Below, piece by piece: positions 11,601-20,600 of a stretch of DNA of 64,000 bases; within the stretch, counting starts at the first letter, position 1, and each line of letters opens with the position of its first letter. The position numbers were made by a program. The stretch lies in assembly GCF_013122565.1 (NCBI RefSeq), contig NZ_CP053258.1, one strand, 5' to 3'. This DNA comes from Escherichia coli (GTDB lineage: Bacteria > Pseudomonadota > Gammaproteobacteria > Enterobacterales > Enterobacteriaceae).

Positions 11601-14600
11601 GTGCACGCTGCATGGCTTCAGTGGCTTTAACGACTTCCATTTGCTGCTCAAACTGAGCGATACGCTGCGCTGTCGCTGTAACTGCTTTTTCCACGCCATC
11701 ACGGGAGACTTCCAGATTCGACAACACTTGCTCTTCAGCGGTAATGAGATTCTCAAGGCGCGCGATTTCTTCAGCAACTTCGTTAATCAACGACGGATTA
11801 ACGTTCTTGCTTAACGCTTCCAGCGCACGAGCTTCCAGACTGGCTTTGCGCTCACGTAAATCTTTCAGCTTATCGTGACTTAACTTCACCCGCGCCAGCA
11901 GATCAACGCGAGATTTTCCGGCTTTATCGAGTTCAGCTTTAGCGTCACGAATATGCTGTTCCAGCATGCGCACACCCTGGGTTTCTTCAATGGATTCTTC
12001 CGCCTGAGAGATAAACGATTTCCCCAGCGTAAATAAACTTTTTAAAATTCCCATAAATACCCGTCCTTGTAATTAGTGTGAATATTCTTCTGTAATTTCA
12101 GCCAGATCCAATGCGTTATCTACCAGCGAGGTTATCTCAAGCAGGATATCTTCAAGAGAAGATTTAAGCGATAACGCACCGAAAACAATGTAATACTCTT
12201 CTTGTTGTACGCTGGAGATTCCTACCGATGACAACGGCATCATCTTCTGATTTCTTAATAAGAAGGTATTAAATTCATCTGGATTGCTGATACTACTTAC
12301 CGGACAAATAAAGGTTTCGATAATCATTTGGCGGGAAGTAAAAAGAATATTGATTTGCAAATCGCCATAATCATTCATTTTAATAATTAATGCGTTCTCG
12401 CTATTTGTTACATCAATATTTTGTTCATGTTCAGTTTGCAGCGCCGTCGCCAGCGCCAACGGATTCCATGTCATATATTATTCCATATAGATTAAGTTTA
12501 AATATTAATAAAATGAATATTTGCAGTACATAATTATCTTACCAGCTATAGACAAAAAAAAACCATCCAAATCTGGATGGCTATTAAGAAGAACCAAAAA
12601 TTTAACGCTATGCATACGATAAAAAATGCGCCAGTCTACATACACTGACGCTAATGATTAGTCACTACAAGTCTAACGACCGCTTCCACAACATAAAATC
12701 AAACTGTTCGAGTTTGTCTGCCTTCACGACGTAGTCCTTACTGGCAGTTTCAATAACTTTTTCAAATAATTCTCTACTCACATCTTCCAGCGGAGTGCCG
12801 TCAATCACTGGGCCACAGTCGAAATCAATCATGTCAGACAATCGTCTGGCAATCGTGCTGTTGGTGGATATTTTTAACACCGGAACAATCGGGTTACCGG
12901 TGGGCGTACCAAGACCCGTCGAGAAGATAACCACATTACATCCTGCTGCTACCAATCCGGTTACCGCGTCCACGTCATTGCCCGGAGTACACACCAACGA
13001 TAATCCACTATCGGGCATAGGCTCAGCGTAATCGCATACACTCACAATTGGCGCTCGCCCGCCTTTTTTCGCTGCTCCGGTAGATTTTATTGCGTCAGTA
13101 ATCAACCCATCCGCGATGTTGCCAAAACTTGGGTTATCCGCAATGGTGGTATCGAAAAAGTTCGCTGTCTTTTCGTAGCCTTGCATTAGATTGAGGAACT
13201 TTTTTTTATCCTCAAGATTAATACAACGCTTAACCATATCACCTTCTGCCCCACATAATTCTGGAAATTCTGCTAACCCGGAAGCGCCACCAAGCGTTGT
13301 CAACCAGTCAGAAACCAGCCCCATTGCAGGGTTGCCGGAGATACCAGAAAAACCATCGGAACCACCACACTTCATCCCCACTTTGAGACAGGAAAGAGGG
13401 ACCTCTACTCTTTCTGTCGGCTTCACCGCTTTCATTGCCGCGAAAGTCTGCTGTAAAGCGGTCTGCATCATCCGCTCTTCGCTGTCCCACTCCTGTTGGA
13501 GAAAGTAGAGCGCAGGTTTATCAAATTCAGGATTACGTCTCGCCAGCGCATCCTTAAACATTTTCTGCTGCGCTTTTTCACATCCTAAACTGAATACCGT
13601 CATACCGATTACATTCGGATGGTCAGCATAAGCAGCTAATACATCGCACATAGTTTCACAGTCTGAAGTTGCACCACCACAACCACTGGTGACCGTAATA
13701 CAGCGAACACCTTCAATATGCGGAAACATTCTCGCGGTTTCGATCAGTTCATCGCTACCGGACGTCAGATTAAGAGCAAACTTTTTCAGTGAGTTATTGG
13801 TATAACCCAAAGCATCATTCAAAGCATTGGTTAACTTACTGACATTACGGTTCTCGCAAAATACCAATGGAAAGACTAACCAGTAACTGGCAGTACCCAC
13901 TCTGCCATCGTCACGGACATAACCTTTAAAAGTGCGGGTGCTCCAGTCAGAGACATCCGGTGCCTGCCAGTGGTAGGGTTCAACATCCTCCAGTGTGACA
14001 GGAGCTGCATAGTGGCGAATATTATCAACGGTAATCGCTTCTCCCTTAACGATGGGACGCGTGGCCTTGCCAACTGGCGTACCGTACATCGAAACAATGC
14101 CATCCAGAGGAATATCTTGCGTCGCAAACTTATGTTTAGCCTTAACATCAGTTACTAACGTTATGTTGTCGTCATCCCACGAGTACGATTCTCCAGCGTG
14201 CAGGTCTTTCAACGCGACAATGAGATTATCGTTACTGTCGATACGTAATATTTTTTGCATAATCATATTCTTCCAGTCAGATGTTCAATCTTATTAACTG
14301 TATGCTTTTGCTGCCTGTTGGCTCTTTTGCAGCAATCCAATCAATAATGCGCAGCCGATGGTAATTACAGACAACGCCATCAATCCGGCGATGCTGCTAT
14401 CCATTGCCCGATCAACCTCAACACGGATAAGAGGAGCAAGGAACGAGCAGAAAGCGCCCATCGTGGTGCAAAAACCGATCCCCGCAGCCAGTGCCGGACC
14501 AGTAAGAAGTTGTGGAGGGAAAGTCCAGAATATTGGCTGTACTGAGAGGAAACCAACCGCACTTAAACAAAGTGCACCAATCGCCACAACAGGCCCCGCA

Positions 14601-17600: not shown

Positions 17601-20600
17601 TCAACACCTTACAGGATATCAATATCGGTATTGATTCCCACCATTAAGGGTATTTTCCATTCGAAGCCCGATACGTAAAAATTATCGGGCTAACAAAATA
17701 TCCATTGAATGGATAGCGATGAACTAGCTGCGCTGGCGCACCGCTTCAAATAAGCAAATTCCGGTCGCAACCGAAACGTTCAGGGAAGAAACGCTTCCAG
17801 CCATCGGGATGCTGATCAACTCATCGCAATGTTCACGAGTCAGGCGACGCATACCTTCACCTTCCGCACCCATCACCAGCGCCAGGCGTCCGGTCATTTT
17901 GCTCTGATAGAGTGTATGATCCGCCTCGCCTGCCGTACCGACGATCCAGATATTCTCTTCCTGCAACATACGCATGGTGCGCGCAAGGTTAGTCACCCGA
18001 ATCAGCGGAACGTTTTCTGCCGCGCCGCAGGCTACTTTTTTCGCCGTGGCGTTGAGCTGTGCGGAGCGATCTTTCGGCACAATCACCGCATGAACGCCAG
18101 CGGCGTCCGCGCTACGCAGGCACGCGCCGAGGTTGTGCGGATCGGTTACACCGTCGAGGATCAGCAGGAACGGTTGATCGAGCGAAGCGATCAGATCCGG
18201 CAGATCGTTTTCCTGATACTGACGTCCTGGCTTCACACGGGCAATAATGCCCTGATGCACGGCACCGTCGCTTTTCTCGTCGAGATACTGACGGTTCGCC
18301 AACTGGATAACCACGCCCTGGGACTCAAGGGCGTGAATCAGCGGTAACAGACGTTTATCTTCACGGCCTTTTAAAATAAAGACTTCCTGAAAACGTTCAG
18401 GGGCGCGCTCCAGCAGGGCCTGCACTGCGTGGATGCCGTAAATCATTTCGCTCATTAATGTACTCGTTGTTTACGTTTTGCCTGATGCACTACGTTTATC
18501 CGGCCTACATGATCTCTGCAATATATTGAATTTGCGTGATTATGTAGGCCGGATAAGGCGTTCACGCCGCATCCGGCATGAACAAAGCGCATTTTGTCAG
18601 CAATCTAACCCTCTTCTTTTAAAGAGGGTAATGATCACTCTGCCACTTTTTTCTTCGCCGCACGCTTCGCTTTGGTCGCTGCAGCTATTTTCTGCGTTTT
18701 CGCCGATGGCTTTTTCGCTTTTCTCGCGTCTTTCTTCGCTGCTTTCGGCTTCGTTTTTTTCTCACCGCGGAAGGCGCTGTCTGGCTCAAAGTTTACCTTT
18801 TTACCGACCTGACGACGCTTGCCGCCTTTTTTACCTGTATCGCCTTTTTTCGCTTTCTCGCGCGCCGTTTTACCGACGTTGCGCGGTGCGCGTTCGCTGG
18901 AGATCAGGCTAAAGTCGATTTTGCGCTCGTCCATATTAACCGCTTCGACGCGAACTTCCACGCGATCGCCCAGACGATAAGTCTGGCCGCTGGATTCACC
19001 CATCAGCCGTTGCCCTACCTGGTCAAAGCGATAGTAGTCATTGTCCAGCGAAGAGACATGGACCAGACCATCAATGAACAAGTCGTCCAGACGGACGAAG
19101 AAGCCAAAGCCAGTGACGCTGGAAATTACGCCTTTAAAGACGTTACCTACCTGGTCGAGCATGAAGTCACACTTCAGCCAGTCAGCTACATCGCGCGTTG
19201 CTTCGTCGGCACGACGTTCCGCCATCGAACAGTGCTGACCCAGTTGCAGCATCTCTTCCATCGAATAATGGTAGCCGCCGGTTTCAGTGGTGTTGCCCTG
19301 ATGCCCCTGCTCTTTCGCCAGCAGATATTTAATGGCGCGGTGCAACGTCAGGTCAGGATAACGACGAATCGGCGAAGTAAAGTGCGCATAGGACTGCAAT
19401 GCCAGACCGAAGTGACCACGGTTTTCCGGATCGTAAATTGCCTGTTTCATCGAGCGCAGCAGCATGGTTTGCAGCATTTCTGCATCAGGACGATCGGCAA
19501 CCGACTCCAGCAGCTCCGCGTAGTCACGCGGTTCCGGCTTGTTACCACCCGGCAGTTCCAGCCCCAGCTCCGCCAGAACAGAACGGAAAGAGGTAATCGC
19601 TTCGGTGCTCGGCTTGTCGTGAATACGGAACAGTGCCGGTTCTTTGGCTTTCTCAACGAAACGCGCCGCCGAGATATTCGCCAGAATCATGCACTCTTCA
19701 ATTAACTTGTGCGCGTCGTTACGCTGAGTCTGTTCGATACGCTCAATACGGCGTTCAGCGTTGAAAATAAACTTCGCTTCTTCGCTCTCAAATGAGATCC
19801 CACCGCGTTCTTCACGGGCTTTATCCAGCACTTTATAAAGGTTATGCAACTCTTCGAGATGCTTAACCAGCGGGGCGTATTGCTCGCGCAGATCCTGATC
19901 GCCCTGCAGAATATGCCAGACTTTGGTGTAGGTCAGACGCGCGTGAGAGCTCATCACCGCTTCGTAGAATTTGTAGCCAGTCAGGCGGCCTTTCGACGAA
20001 ACCGTCATCTCGCACACCATACACAGGCGGTCTACCTGCGGGTTGAGCGAACACAGGCCGTTAGAGAGCACTTCCGGCAGCATCGGGATAACCTGCGAAG
20101 GGAAGTACACCGACGTGCCACGGTTACGCGCTTCTCTGTCCAGCGGCGTTGGCGGACGCACATAGTAGCTGACGTCGGCAATCGCGACCCATAAACGCCA
20201 GCCGCCGCCGCGTTTTTTCTCGCAGTAAACTGCATCGTCAAAGTCACGGGCGTCTTCGCCATCAATGGTGACCAGCGGTAAATCACGCAGATCGACACGG
20301 CCCGCTTTTGCTTCTTCCGGCACTTCTTCTTTCAGCCCGGCAACCTGTTGCTCAACAGCCTGCGGCCAGATGTACGGAATTTCATGGGTACGCAGAGCGA
20401 TATCAACCGCCATGCCGGTGCCCATATTGTCGCCCAGCACTTCGACGATTTTACCCACCGCTTTGGTACGGCGAGTCGGGCGTTGGGTCAGTTCAACTAC
20501 GACCACAAAGCCCATCCGCGCGCCCATGATCTGATCGGGCGGGATTAAGATATCGAAGCTCAGACGGCTATCGTCAGGAACCACAAAGCCGACGCCCGCT

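What the first reader, a model, noticed from the sequence alone, without database searches (positions are those of the whole stretch)
12475..17723. Four-gene accessory insertion between yjfI and rlmB: UxaA/GarD-type dehydratase, sugar-acid permease, DapA-type lyase and divergent IclR regulator
Four intact ORFs sit between yjfI and rlmB, which I recall as adjacent genes in the K-12 reference. The three minus-strand genes (15646-16539, 14294-15595, 12665-14266) are spaced 50 and 27 bp apart and end in a hairpin plus T-run (12553-12580), so they look like one operon. The IclR gene (16847-17647) is divergent across a ~300-bp AT-rich control region. Motifs seen: GarD/UxaA-like blocks (GMKCGGSDGFSG, KKGG, TGLGTPTG) in the 533-aa protein; FIDRVNVGFA in the permease; GSTGE and IIGMKD Schiff-base lysine in the DapA-fold protein. 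Inference: uptake of an acidic sugar, dehydration to a 2-keto-3-deoxy acid, then DapA-type cleavage or dehydration. This enzyme pairing does not match the characterised E. coli sugar-acid routes I know (uxa/uxu, gar/gud, dgo, lgo, rhm, yjh/yag), and there is no kinase, so substrate and pathway are open. The region looked AT-richer than the flanks by eye. No integrase, transposase or flanking direct repeats were seen.
Basis: partly seen in the sequence, partly recalled or inferred. Interest (0 to 1): 0.7.

Follow-up and report, generated by a model that had tools for sequence, protein, structure and literature searches.

The report
Accessory sugar-acid (probably L-fuconate) cassette
About one in ten E. 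coli strains carries a foreign four-gene unit between rlmB and yjfI. It most likely imports a sugar acid (best guess L-fuconate, an oxidised form of fucose) and splits it into pyruvate plus an aldehyde, which is a known type of pathway whose role has not been described for E. coli.

Summary
A 5,141-bp, 44% GC insert (window 12583-17723) sits between the rlmB stop codon and the resident rlmB terminator. It is present in 512 of 5,426 complete E. coli genomes and absent from MG1655. It encodes a UxaA/GarD-superfamily dehydratase, an anion:cation-symporter-type MFS permease, a DHDPS-fold class I aldolase and a divergent IclR regulator.

UxaA-type dehydratase plus DHDPS-type aldolase under an IclR repressor is the published "route 1" non-phosphorylative L-fucose/D-arabinose pathway (Campylobacter jejuni cj0480c-cj0484). 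The kinase-free logic equals E. coli's own yag/yjh and rhm clusters.

Relatives of the E. coli dehydratase (61-63% identical) lie beside curated-cutoff FucP, L-fucose dehydrogenase, fuconolactonase-like genes or lactaldehyde reductase. The E. coli unit lacks the sugar-oxidising steps and carries an acid permease. It therefore probably scavenges the acid itself: L-fuconate most likely, with D-arabinonate and others possible.

A conserved promoter and a 19-nt operator-like element define the control region. The cassette is three to five times less diverged than its flanks, which indicates one gain followed by lateral spread. The substrate is inferred, not shown. Verdict: a new member of a known kind, of moderate interest.

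The parts
12583..17723 (.). Inserted segment (5,141 bp, 44.0% GC). It replaces 18 bp (TTTCATAATTCTGAGAAA) of the empty site.
   Evidence: Base-by-base comparison with the empty site of strain JME66. GC content. Found in 519 genomes, all at least 99% identical and at one site.
12561..12582 (-). Resident rlmB terminator (AGCCATCCAGATTTGGATGG plus a T-run). It is not part of the insert and now lies downstream of the operon.
   Evidence: Present unchanged in empty sites. Called as a terminator.
12628..12651 (-). The operon's own intrinsic terminator (GCGTCAGTG...CTGGCGC followed by ATTTTTTATC), 14 bp after the dehydratase stop codon.
   Evidence: Terminator scan: 8-bp stem with 5 G-C pairs. Function is inferred.
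12665..14266 (-). UxaA/GarD-superfamily sugar-acid dehydratase. The ORF is 533 aa. The probable start is 14260, giving 531 aa.
   Evidence: Pfam SAF + GD_AH_second + GD_AH_C. PDB best hit GarD, 1e-50. GarD equivalog 220 bits against a cutoff of 731. 34% identical to K-12 UxaA. Cys137/196/229/348 conserved in 125 of 125 sequences and Cys300 in 124 of 125. RefSeq start.
14294..15595 (-). MFS permease of the anion:cation symporter (D-galactonate transporter) type, 433 aa. Predicted sugar-acid/H+ importer.
   Evidence: Pfam MFS_1. Best NCBIfam hit TIGR00893, 255 bits, below its cutoff of 395. 50% identical to K-12 RhmT/YfaV and 23% to ExuT. 70-90% identical to the permeases of homologous cassettes.
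15646..16539 (-). DHDPS/NAL-fold class I (Schiff-base) aldolase, 297 aa. Predicted 2-keto-3-deoxy sugar-acid aldolase.
   Evidence: Pfam DHDPS, 8.6e-60. Closest solved structure is E. coli YagE at 4.6e-48, with the next hit at 2e-33. Below the DapA, NanA and KdgD cutoffs. G42-S43-x-G45-E46, Y132 and K161 conserved in at least 95% of 190 sequences.
16560..16578 (-). Candidate IclR operator. The 19-nt GTTTGTATATATGAACAAT is invariant in E. coli, Leminorella and Morganella and contains an imperfect palindrome.
   Evidence: Footprint alignment A1. Palindrome and repeat detection. Regulator binding is inferred, not shown.
16582..16597 (-). Upstream repeat of the operator half-site (GTTTGTATTTAAAAAC), 19 bp from the first copy.
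   Evidence: Direct-repeat family D1. Partly conserved across three genera.
16605..16632 (-). Operon promoter: -35 TTGACT, 16-nt spacer, -10 TATACT (10 of 12 matches).
   Evidence: Promoter scan. The -35 block ATTTGACTC is invariant in three genera within an otherwise divergent spacer.
16806..16834 (+). iclR promoter: -35 TTTACT, 17-nt spacer, -10 TAGAAT.
   Evidence: Promoter scan. Both hexamers lie in invariant blocks (AAGTAAAT and ATTCTAGG on the opposite strand) of alignment A1.
16847..17647 (+). IclR-family transcriptional regulator. The long ORF is 266 aa. The probable start is 16868, giving 259 aa.
   Evidence: Pfam HTH_IclR + IclR_C. PDB IclR and KdgR hits. Below all NCBIfam equivalog cutoffs. 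RefSeq start.
17665..17691 (.). Stem-loop with a 9-bp stem (AGCCCGATA/TATCGGGCT) between the convergent iclR and rlmB genes. No T-run on either strand.
   Evidence: Read directly from the sequence. Any role as a terminator is inferred.

Best explanation
The insert is a self-contained, horizontally acquired cassette for scavenging a sugar acid.

1. The MFS permease imports an aldonic acid.
2. The iron-dependent UxaA-family dehydratase converts it to a 2-keto-3-deoxy acid.
3. The YagE-like class I aldolase cleaves that, through a Lys161 Schiff base, into pyruvate plus a short aldehyde.
4. Core E. coli enzymes (AldA, FucO; established knowledge) then dispose of the aldehyde.

The divergently transcribed IclR protein represses the operon by binding the conserved repeats between the -10 box and the aldolase start codon. 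It is probably released by the 2-keto-3-deoxy intermediate.

The most likely substrate is L-fuconate, giving pyruvate plus L-lactaldehyde. D-arabinonate, giving glycolaldehyde, is a probable co-substrate. On this reading the cassette is the lower half of the non-phosphorylative 'route 1' L-fucose pathway, with an acid permease in place of the sugar-oxidising steps.

Shown here: the anatomy, the family memberships, the catalytic residues, conservation as a unit, and the context of relatives. Inferred: the substrate, the products, the effector and operator binding.

My confidence is about 0.8 for the general mechanism and about 0.5 for L-fuconate specifically.
For: Families and catalytic residues are as stated.

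The four genes travel as one unit through unrelated neighbourhoods in Leminorella, Morganella, three Klebsiella species and an Acetobacteraceae MAG. They are under strong purifying selection (pN 0.06-0.12 with saturated pS).

Context of dehydratase relatives:

- Desulfovibrio MAG (dehydratase 61%, aldolase 54%, IclR 45% identical): FucP replaces the acid permease (310 bits, cutoff 280). A fuconolactonase-like gene and an aldo-keto reductase follow.
- L014 (63%): L-fucose dehydrogenase 408 bits (cutoff 300), FucP 289 (cutoff 280), lactonase-like 353.
- Ignatzschineria (61%): L-fucose dehydrogenase 389 (cutoff 300), FucP 329 (cutoff 280), a mutarotase-family gene and a lactonase-like gene at 323.
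- Orbus cassette (permease 71%, dehydratase 63%): ends in lactaldehyde reductase, 704 bits (cutoff 537).

Relatives of the aldolase and IclR in gut anaerobes sit in clusters of IclR, KdgT-type permease, split UxaA, FAH-family protein, DHDPS and Fe-ADH. In Fusobacterium the Fe-ADH is a lactaldehyde reductase at 672 bits (cutoff 537).

In unrooted trees, UxaC-linked altronate-type enzymes separate from all DHDPS/fucose-linked ones in 60 of 60 replicates. The E. coli enzyme groups with the Desulfovibrio FucP locus in 54 of 60.

Published precedent:

- The C. jejuni fucose locus has the same four families (PMC12566272, PMC6946681).
- The route 1 L-KDF aldolase is a DHDPS-family enzyme (PMC11199699).
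- UxaA-family enzymes act on L-fuconate and D-arabinonate (PMC6336799).
- The IclR-type regulator XynR senses the 2-keto-3-deoxy intermediate (PMC13279387).
- FucR is not released by fucose in vitro.

The control region shows conserved promoter and operator footprints.
Against: - No enzyme or growth data exist for the E. coli genes.
- I could not obtain the sequences of the biochemically characterised enzymes (Cj0481-Cj0484, Veillonella FucH, C785_RS13685). Orthology to them is therefore untested.
- Homologues at 57-58% identity are true altronate dehydratases in UxaC/UxaB clusters.
- The family is promiscuous among acids that share the C2-C4 configuration (PMC6336799).
- The rooted 'sister clade' picture has only 22 of 100 bootstrap support.
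- Three of the informative loci are weaker than they look. L014 and Orbus use a different DHDPS lineage (29-34% identity), and Ignatzschineria has no aldolase in view.
- Only the Desulfovibrio locus shares the E. coli aldolase lineage, and its lactonase-like gene is below cutoff (189 bits, cutoff 400).
- The permease is below its curated subfamily cutoff.
- Lactaldehyde reductase also reduces glycolaldehyde (established knowledge), so its presence does not separate L-fuconate from D-arabinonate.
Confidence: 0.6

Rival explanations
1. The mechanism is the same, but the physiological substrate is D-arabinonate (or another pentonate). It would give 2-keto-3-deoxy-D-pentonate, cleaved to pyruvate plus glycolaldehyde. 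This would be a Dahms-type route like yagEF/yjhGH with a different dehydratase family.
For: The aldolase's closest solved relative is YagE, a 2-keto-3-deoxy-xylonate/gluconate aldolase. A UxaA-family D-arabinonate dehydratase has been characterised (PMC6336799). The C. jejuni locus supports growth on D-arabinose as well as L-fucose (PMC6946681). FucO-type reductases also reduce glycolaldehyde (established knowledge).
Against: The sugar-oxidising genes next to relatives score as L-fucose dehydrogenase and FucP above curated cutoffs. The permease's nearest K-12 paralogue transports a 6-deoxyhexonate, L-rhamnonate. The characterised D-arabinonate dehydratase appears to belong to another subfamily: it is 67% identical to D-idonate dehydratase and its N-terminus is very different.
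Confidence: 0.18
2. The substrate is a hexonate such as D-altronate or L-galactonate. The product (KDG or 2-keto-3-deoxy-L-galactonate) would be cleaved without phosphorylation to pyruvate plus glyceraldehyde.
For: Homologues at 57-58% identity sit in UxaC/UxaB/KdgK galacturonate clusters. D-altronate and L-galactonate share the C2-C4 configuration with L-fuconate, and UxaA-family enzymes accept them (PMC6336799). The aldolase gives weak hits to the archaeal KDG aldolase model (132 bits).
Against: E. coli already converts D-altronate (UxaA, KdgK, Eda) and L-galactonate (the lgo genes; established knowledge). A dedicated aldolase would be redundant for KDG. UxaC-linked enzymes separate from the E. 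coli group in 60 of 60 replicates. No cassette-type locus carries UxaC, UxaB or KdgK. The recurrent partners are lactaldehyde reductase and L-fucose genes.
Confidence: 0.12
3. It is an aldarate route. A GarD-like dehydratase would make 5-keto-4-deoxy-glucarate, and the DapA-fold protein would act as a KdgD-type dehydratase/decarboxylase.
For: The only full-length solved relative of the dehydratase is GarD. GarD is its only NCBIfam hit. KdgD is a DHDPS-fold enzyme.
Against: GarD model 220 bits against a cutoff of 731. KdgD models 85-89 bits against cutoffs of 374 and 278. There is no alpha-ketoglutarate-semialdehyde dehydrogenase in any cassette. The aldolase clusters with YagE-type aldolases. 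Partner genes point to aldehydes and fucose.
Confidence: 0.04
4. It is a cryptic or decaying passenger in E. coli: intact by descent but not expressed or useful.
For: Only 9.4% of genomes carry it. Some copies are hit by IS2 or IS421 or removed by an IS1 deletion. Within E. coli the few differences are not strongly biased to synonymous changes (10 synonymous: 8 non-synonymous, and 5: 6).
Against: 512 of 519 copies are full length, and those inspected have all four ORFs annotated as intact. Promoter and operator elements are conserved. The cassette has spread across divergent backbones (flanks 1.2-2.7% diverged, cassette 0.25-0.64%), which argues for selection of the unit.
Confidence: 0.06

Closest known systems
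Campylobacter jejuni L-fucose/D-arabinose locus (PR2), genes cj0480c-cj0484 (FucR, DapA-like aldolase, UxaA-type dehydratase, MFS)
   Same: The same four protein families. The IclR repressor is divergently transcribed from an operon that starts with the DHDPS-fold gene. The chemistry is non-phosphorylative: dehydratase then aldolase, giving pyruvate plus lactaldehyde or glycolaldehyde (PMC12566272, PMC6946681, PMC11199699).
   Different: The E. coli unit lacks the L-fucose dehydrogenase, lactonase, mutarotase, FucP and aldehyde dehydrogenase genes. It must therefore start from the acid rather than the sugar. Its dehydratase is a single 531-aa chain rather than two pieces. Sequence orthology to the C. 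jejuni proteins could not be tested here.
E. coli D-xylonate clusters yagEFG-xynR and yjhIHG (Dahms-type)
   Same: Accessory, horizontally acquired units made of an acid transporter, a dehydratase, a DHDPS-fold aldolase and an IclR regulator, with no kinase. YagE is the closest solved relative of the aldolase. XynR senses the 2-keto-3-deoxy intermediate.
   Different: The dehydratase there is IlvD/Edd-type rather than UxaA-type, and the transporters belong to other families. Identities are low: aldolase 30-32%, IclR 27%.
E. coli L-rhamnonate cluster rhmRDTA (yfaXWVU)
   Same: An IclR-type regulator, a 6-deoxyhexonate permease of the same MFS family (50% identity, the closest K-12 paralogue), a dehydratase and an aldolase giving pyruvate plus L-lactaldehyde.
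   Different: The dehydratase is from the enolase superfamily. The aldolase is of the HpcH/HpaI (class II) type rather than DHDPS-fold.
UxaA D-altronate dehydratase of hexuronate catabolism (K-12 uxaCA, and the UxaC/UxaB-linked 532-aa enzymes of betaproteobacteria)
   Same: Same superfamily and domain order, and the same conserved cysteines. The betaproteobacterial type is 57-58% identical.
   Different: Only 34% identical to K-12 UxaA. The context has no UxaC, UxaB or KdgK. It separates from the UxaC-linked group in 60 of 60 replicates.
Clusters of gut Firmicutes and Fusobacteria: IclR, KdgT-type permease, split UxaA, FAH-family protein, DHDPS aldolase, Fe-ADH
   Same: Acid uptake, then UxaA-type dehydratase, then an aldolase of the same lineage (45-50% identity) under an IclR of the same lineage (41%).
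   Different: A different permease family. The dehydratase is two-piece and only 35% identical. An FAH-family gene and a lactaldehyde-reductase-type gene are added.

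Membership tests
UxaA/GarD dehydratase superfamily (COG2721) | Domain order SAF, then GD_AH second domain, then GD_AH C-terminal domain | tested here: met
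   Pfam 2.2e-10, 1.6e-30 and 2.8e-83.
UxaA/GarD dehydratase superfamily (COG2721) | Four conserved iron-ligand cysteines (C134, C173, C208, C276 of C785_RS13685; PMC6336799) | tested here: met
   Cys137, Cys196 and Cys229 are conserved in 125 of 125 sequences and Cys300 in 124 of 125. All four are also present in K-12 UxaA. The motif contexts match the paper's alignment.
Galactarate dehydratase GarD (TIGR03248 equivalog) | Score at or above the curated cutoff of 730.85 bits | tested here: not met
   220.1 bits.
D-altronate dehydratase UxaA (hexuronate pathway) | Close similarity to E. coli UxaA, and linkage to UxaC/UxaB | tested here: not met
   34% identity. No uxaC or uxaB in any cassette locus. 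Separates from UxaC-linked homologues in 60 of 60 replicates.
DHDPS/NAL class I aldolase superfamily (PF00701) | Full-length domain match with the Schiff-base lysine, catalytic tyrosine and GxxGE motif | tested here: met
   Pfam 8.6e-60. K161 aligns to YagE K167. Y132 and G42-S43-x-G45-E46 are conserved.
DapA (4-hydroxy-tetrahydrodipicolinate synthase, TIGR00674) | Score at or above 206.15 bits | tested here: not met
   165.5 bits.
N-acetylneuraminate lyase NanA (NF003164, TIGR00683) | Score at or above 281 bits (NF003164) or 382 bits (TIGR00683) | tested here: not met
   149.8 and 117.2 bits.
5-dehydro-4-deoxyglucarate dehydratase KdgD (TIGR03249, NF002958) | Score at or above 374 bits (TIGR03249) or 278 bits (NF002958) | tested here: not met
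   85.4 and 88.6 bits.
YagE/YjhH 2-keto-3-deoxy sugar-acid aldolases | Orthology to YagE | tested here: inconclusive
   YagE is the best solved relative (4.6e-48, next hit 2e-33), but identity is only 30-32%. It is a related lineage, not an orthologue.
Anion:cation symporter MFS subfamily (TIGR00893, D-galactonate transporter type) | Score at or above 395 bits | tested here: not met
   254.7 bits. It is the best hit but below the cutoff. Pfam MFS_1 is met. 50% identical to RhmT. DgoT is the best PDB hit, at 1.6e-09.
IclR family of transcription factors | N-terminal HTH_IclR domain plus C-terminal IclR effector domain | tested here: met
   Pfam 2.7e-11 and 3.1e-33. No equivalog cutoff is reached (BhcR 138 against 350, KdgR 122 against 275).
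Route 1 non-phosphorylative L-fucose pathway (C. jejuni / Veillonella type) | UxaA-type L-fuconate dehydratase plus DHDPS-type L-KDF aldolase in one operon | tested here: inconclusive
   Both families are present and adjacent. Activities are untested. Relatives are linked to L-fucose genes.
Route 1 non-phosphorylative L-fucose pathway (C. jejuni / Veillonella type) | Upper pathway present: L-fucose dehydrogenase, fuconolactonase and an L-fucose permease | tested here: not met
   The insert has no such genes, only the four ORFs. It can be at most the lower, acid-utilising half.
Route 1 non-phosphorylative L-fucose pathway (C. jejuni / Veillonella type) | Sequence orthology to the characterised enzymes (Cj0481-Cj0484, FucH) | not testable with these tools
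   The sequences could not be retrieved.

The most novel reading that the evidence does not exclude
The cassette gives a minority of E. coli lineages, including strain 042 and an isolate labelled ST1193, a nutrient that K-12-type strains cannot use. That nutrient would be free L-fuconate, excreted by fucose-oxidising gut bacteria (C. jejuni accumulates large amounts; PMC6946681) or made by the host's own L-fucose dehydrogenase (PMC11293516). It would be a cross-feeding niche determinant that has spread between lineages by recombination.
Probability: 0.3. Interest if true: 0.6.

Novelty: new member of a known kind. Interest (0 to 1): 0.4.

Why it matters
If the substrate call is right, about a tenth of E. 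coli strains can eat an oxidised fucose derivative that the reference strain cannot. This would link them to mucin-fucose turnover by other gut microbes and by the host.

The work also does three practical things:

- It gives a testable function to four genes that RefSeq names only by family.
- It identifies a compact IclR promoter-operator module that could serve as a biosensor for 2-keto-3-deoxy acids.
- It shows that the UxaA-plus-DHDPS acid-scavenging module is widespread in enteric and insect-gut Proteobacteria and in gut anaerobes.

It does not reveal a new kind of pathway.

Tried and rejected
- The single genome-collection scan with the dehydratase used over-specific peptide patterns. 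It returned only 4 loci and no other Escherichia species, so the state of the junction outside E. coli is unknown.
- Watanabe's JBC 2020 paper on L-KDF aldolases is not held.
- Cluster look-ups of aldolase representatives gave almost no names.
- A last large-database search seeded with the Fusobacterium aldolase stayed within hits at least 66% identical. It did not reach Campylobacter or Veillonella.
- The OCR'd superfamily alignment in the Sci Rep 2019 supplement is corrupted after two blocks. It was usable only to map the four cysteines.
- The tidy picture of two rooted sister clades was rejected after bootstrapping (22 of 100). It was replaced by unrooted split tests.
- Plasmid carriage is rejected. 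The three near-identical 'plasmid' records are 0.66-4.9 Mb E. coli replicons, and the next hit is 46% identical.
- There is no Rfam match in 12300-17900.
- Full-text searches found no paper on the E. coli cassette, on likely strain 042 locus tags or on the yjfI junction.
- The recurrent enolase-superfamily neighbour is not FucD-like and is absent from E. coli.
- Leminorella is rejected as the direct donor (74% DNA identity with saturated synonymous sites).

Full report
**1. What is in the sequence**

| Gene | Coordinates | Strand | Length |
|---|---|---|---|
| Dehydratase | 12665-14266 | - | 533 aa |
| Permease | 14294-15595 | - | 433 aa |
| Aldolase | 15646-16539 | - | 297 aa |
| Regulator | 16847-17647 | + | 266 aa |

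RefSeq annotates the same four genes in carrier strains only by family name. It starts the dehydratase at the third codon (window 14260, 531 aa) and the regulator at the eighth (16868, 259 aa). Homologue lengths and a conserved promoter just upstream favour those starts.

**2. Accessory status**

MG1655 has rlmB and yjfI adjacent, 126 bp apart. Among 5,426 complete E. coli genomes, 512 carry the whole stretch. The insert alone is found in 519, always once, always at least 99% identical, and always at this locus.

Comparison with an empty site gives exact boundaries:

- Identity runs from yjfI through the hairpin and T-run at 12561-12582.
- It resumes at the rlmB stop codon, which is TAG here and TAA in empty sites.
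- The insert is therefore 12583-17723 (5,141 bp) and replaces 18 bp.
The operon has its own terminator at 12628-12651.

Other features:

- The insert is 44.0% GC against 49.9% and 53.5% in the flanks.
- There are no mobility genes and no terminal repeats of 9 nt or more.
- It has no genuine plasmid copies.
- There is no Rfam element in the region.

**3. History**

Between carriers, the flanking core genes differ by 1.2-2.7% but the cassette by only 0.25-0.64%. The cassette therefore shares a more recent ancestor than the backbones it sits in. This fits one acquisition followed by spread through homologous recombination, rather than an ancestral locus lost many times.

Secondary decay does occur. 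IS2 and IS421 insertions are seen, and an IS1-mediated deletion left only the last 226 bp.

The nearest known version, in Leminorella richardii, is 82-90% identical in protein but only 74% in DNA, with saturated synonymous sites. No close donor has been sequenced. The same figures (pN 0.06-0.12) show strong long-term purifying selection.

**4. The proteins**

- **Dehydratase.** It has the SAF, GD_AH second and GD_AH C-terminal domains and the conserved iron-ligand cysteines of the UxaA/GarD superfamily. It is neither GarD (220 bits against a cutoff of 731) nor an orthologue of K-12 UxaA (34% identity).
- **DapA-fold protein.** It keeps the Schiff-base lysine, the catalytic tyrosine and the GSxGE motif. 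It falls below the DapA, NanA and KdgD cutoffs. Its closest solved relative is E. coli YagE, a 2-keto-3-deoxy sugar-acid aldolase (4.6e-48, next hit 2e-33).
- **Permease.** It is an MFS of the D-galactonate-transporter type. Its closest K-12 paralogue is the L-rhamnonate transporter RhmT, at 50% identity.
- **Regulator.** It is a standard two-domain IclR protein.

**5. The unit elsewhere**

The four genes occur together, in unrelated neighbourhoods, in Leminorella, Morganella, three Klebsiella species and an Acetobacteraceae MAG. Aldolase homologues track the same taxa as dehydratase homologues.

Two co-travelling pairs can be seen:

- Permease plus dehydratase: the Orbus versions are 71% and 63% identical to E. 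coli.
- IclR plus aldolase: Desulfovibrio 45% and 54%, Fusobacterium 41% and 46%.

**6. What the substrate is likely to be**

The literature shows that a UxaA-type dehydratase plus a DHDPS-type aldolase is the 'route 1' non-phosphorylative L-fucose pathway (PMC11199699). The C. jejuni fucose/D-arabinose locus begins with exactly these four families: FucR, a DapA-like protein, UxaA and an MFS (PMC12566272, PMC6946681). UxaA-family enzymes act on L-fuconate, D-arabinonate, D-altronate and L-galactonate, which share the C2-C4 configuration (PMC6336799).

Independent of those papers, curated models place relatives of the E. coli dehydratase next to L-fucose genes:

| Locus | Dehydratase identity | Informative neighbours (bits, with curated cutoff) |
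|---|---|---|
| Desulfovibrio MAG | 61% | FucP 310 (cutoff 280); lactonase-like 189 (cutoff 400); aldo-keto reductase |
| L014 | 63% | L-fucose dehydrogenase 408 (cutoff 300); FucP 289 (cutoff 280); lactonase-like 353 (cutoff 400) |
| Ignatzschineria | 61% | L-fucose dehydrogenase 389 (cutoff 300); FucP 329 (cutoff 280); mutarotase family; lactonase-like 323 (cutoff 400) |
| Orbus cassette | 63% | lactaldehyde reductase 704 (cutoff 537) |

The aldolase lineage in gut anaerobes sits with an acid permease, a split UxaA and a lactaldehyde-reductase-type gene. In Fusobacterium that gene scores 672 bits against a cutoff of 537.

The E. coli unit has none of the sugar-oxidising genes and carries an acid permease. 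The simplest reading is direct use of the acid:

1. L-fuconate is dehydrated to 2-keto-3-deoxy-L-fuconate.
2. That is cleaved to pyruvate plus L-lactaldehyde.
3. The aldehyde is handled by core AldA or FucO (established knowledge).

**7. Limits of that inference**

- Homologues at 57-58% identity are genuine altronate dehydratases in UxaC/UxaB clusters.
- A rooted two-clade picture is not supported (22 of 100), because the only outgroup is 34% identical.
- Unrooted tests are better. UxaC-linked enzymes separate from all DHDPS/fucose-linked ones in 60 of 60 replicates. The E. coli enzyme groups with the Desulfovibrio FucP locus in 54 of 60 (44 of 60 with the outgroup).
- L014 and Orbus use another DHDPS lineage (29-34% identity).
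- I could not retrieve the characterised C. jejuni, Veillonella or Herbaspirillum sequences, so direct orthology is untested.
- D-arabinonate remains a serious alternative or co-substrate.

**8. Regulation**

In a spacer that is otherwise poorly conserved, E. coli, Leminorella and Morganella share four elements:

- The operon -35 box (ATTTGACTC; window 16627-16632).
- A -10 box (TATACT, 16605-16610).
- An invariant 19-nt GTTTGTATATATGAACAAT (16560-16578), with an upstream half-repeat (16582-16597).
- The iclR promoter (TTTACT, 17-nt spacer, TAGAAT; 16806-16834).

The repeats lie between the -10 box and the aldolase start codon, which is the position expected for a repressor.

By analogy with XynR and YjhI, which respond to 2-keto-3-deoxy-xylonate rather than to xylonate (PMC13279387), the effector is probably the 2-keto-3-deoxy intermediate. 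FucR, likewise, is not released by fucose in vitro. This step is inferred.

**9. Verdict**

It is wrong that the combination is unprecedented.

This is a new, uncharacterised E. coli member of a known pathway type: kinase-free sugar-acid catabolism by a dehydratase plus a class I aldolase under IclR control. The probable substrate is specific and testable. No paper in the held library describes the cassette.

Noticed in passing
window 17700-17714 (compare 12563-12580): The right end of the insert carries a small hairpin, ATCCATTGAATGGAT, followed on the minus strand by ATTTTGTT. Its stem (ATCCA/TGGAT) is the same as that of the resident rlmB terminator at the left junction. The cassette is thus bracketed by two look-alike terminators. 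This could be a diverged duplication, or the rlmB terminator of the lineage in which the cassette first inserted.
   Followed up: partly
window 17724-17726: The rlmB stop codon is TAG next to the insert in this window, but TAA in the one empty-site genome compared (strain JME66). The recombination or insertion break therefore lies exactly at the last base of the stop codon.
   Followed up: partly
L003 274-1392 (E. coli 042, NC_017626.1): In strain 042 both yjfI and yjfJ, immediately next to the cassette, are annotated as pseudogenes with internal stops.
   Followed up: no
H40 (NZ_CP081774.1), H47 (NZ_CM128582.1), L024 (TUM9757): Some copies of the cassette are damaged. In H40 an IS2 element lies within the matched region. 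In H47 an IS421 element splits the permease gene. In TUM9757 an IS1-linked deletion removed all but 226 bp of the cassette, together with yjfI and part of yjfJ.
   Followed up: partly
L004 10450-11550 and L013 15020-16159: An enolase-superfamily gene lies next to the cassette in Leminorella and in the Desulfovibrio fucose-type locus. The two copies are 76% identical despite the taxonomic distance. The best solved relative is 3,6-anhydro-L-galactonate cycloisomerase (2.4e-66), followed by L-talarate/galactarate dehydratase. It may feed a second 2-keto-3-deoxy acid to the same aldolase. It is absent from E. coli.
   Followed up: partly
L025 10719-15234: In one metagenomic cassette (dehydratase 66% identical) the three catabolic genes are followed by a solute-binding protein, an acyl-CoA synthetase, a family III CoA-transferase and a MaoC-type hydratase, and only then by the IclR gene. 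This may be a CoA-dependent fate for the aldehyde or lactate product.
   Followed up: no
L021 8070-8969, L022 8101-8985, L023 8029-8931: A fumarylacetoacetate-hydrolase-family gene is conserved between the split dehydratase and the aldolase in clusters from Clostridium, Fusobacterium and the human gut. Its best curated hit is 2,4-didehydro-3-deoxy-L-rhamnonate hydrolase, at 159 bits against a cutoff of 500. Its role next to an aldolase is unexplained.
   Followed up: no
L006 1-3559 (Morganella morganii): Upstream of the Morganella cassette, separated from it by one UPF0167-family gene, lies a CBASS-like defence set: a DncV-like nucleotidyltransferase, a ThiF/E1-like protein, a JAB protease and a SAVED-domain protein.
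   Followed up: no
window 12073-12474 (yjfI): yjfI is itself AT-rich (37.6% GC). It matches the Pseudomonas biofilm regulator BacA model (95 bits, below the cutoff). The low-GC zone therefore begins before the insert.
   Followed up: no
window 17665-17691: A stem-loop with a 9-bp stem lies between the convergent iclR and rlmB genes. It has no T-run on either strand. It is not in empty sites, so rlmB transcription now ends in foreign sequence.
   Followed up: no
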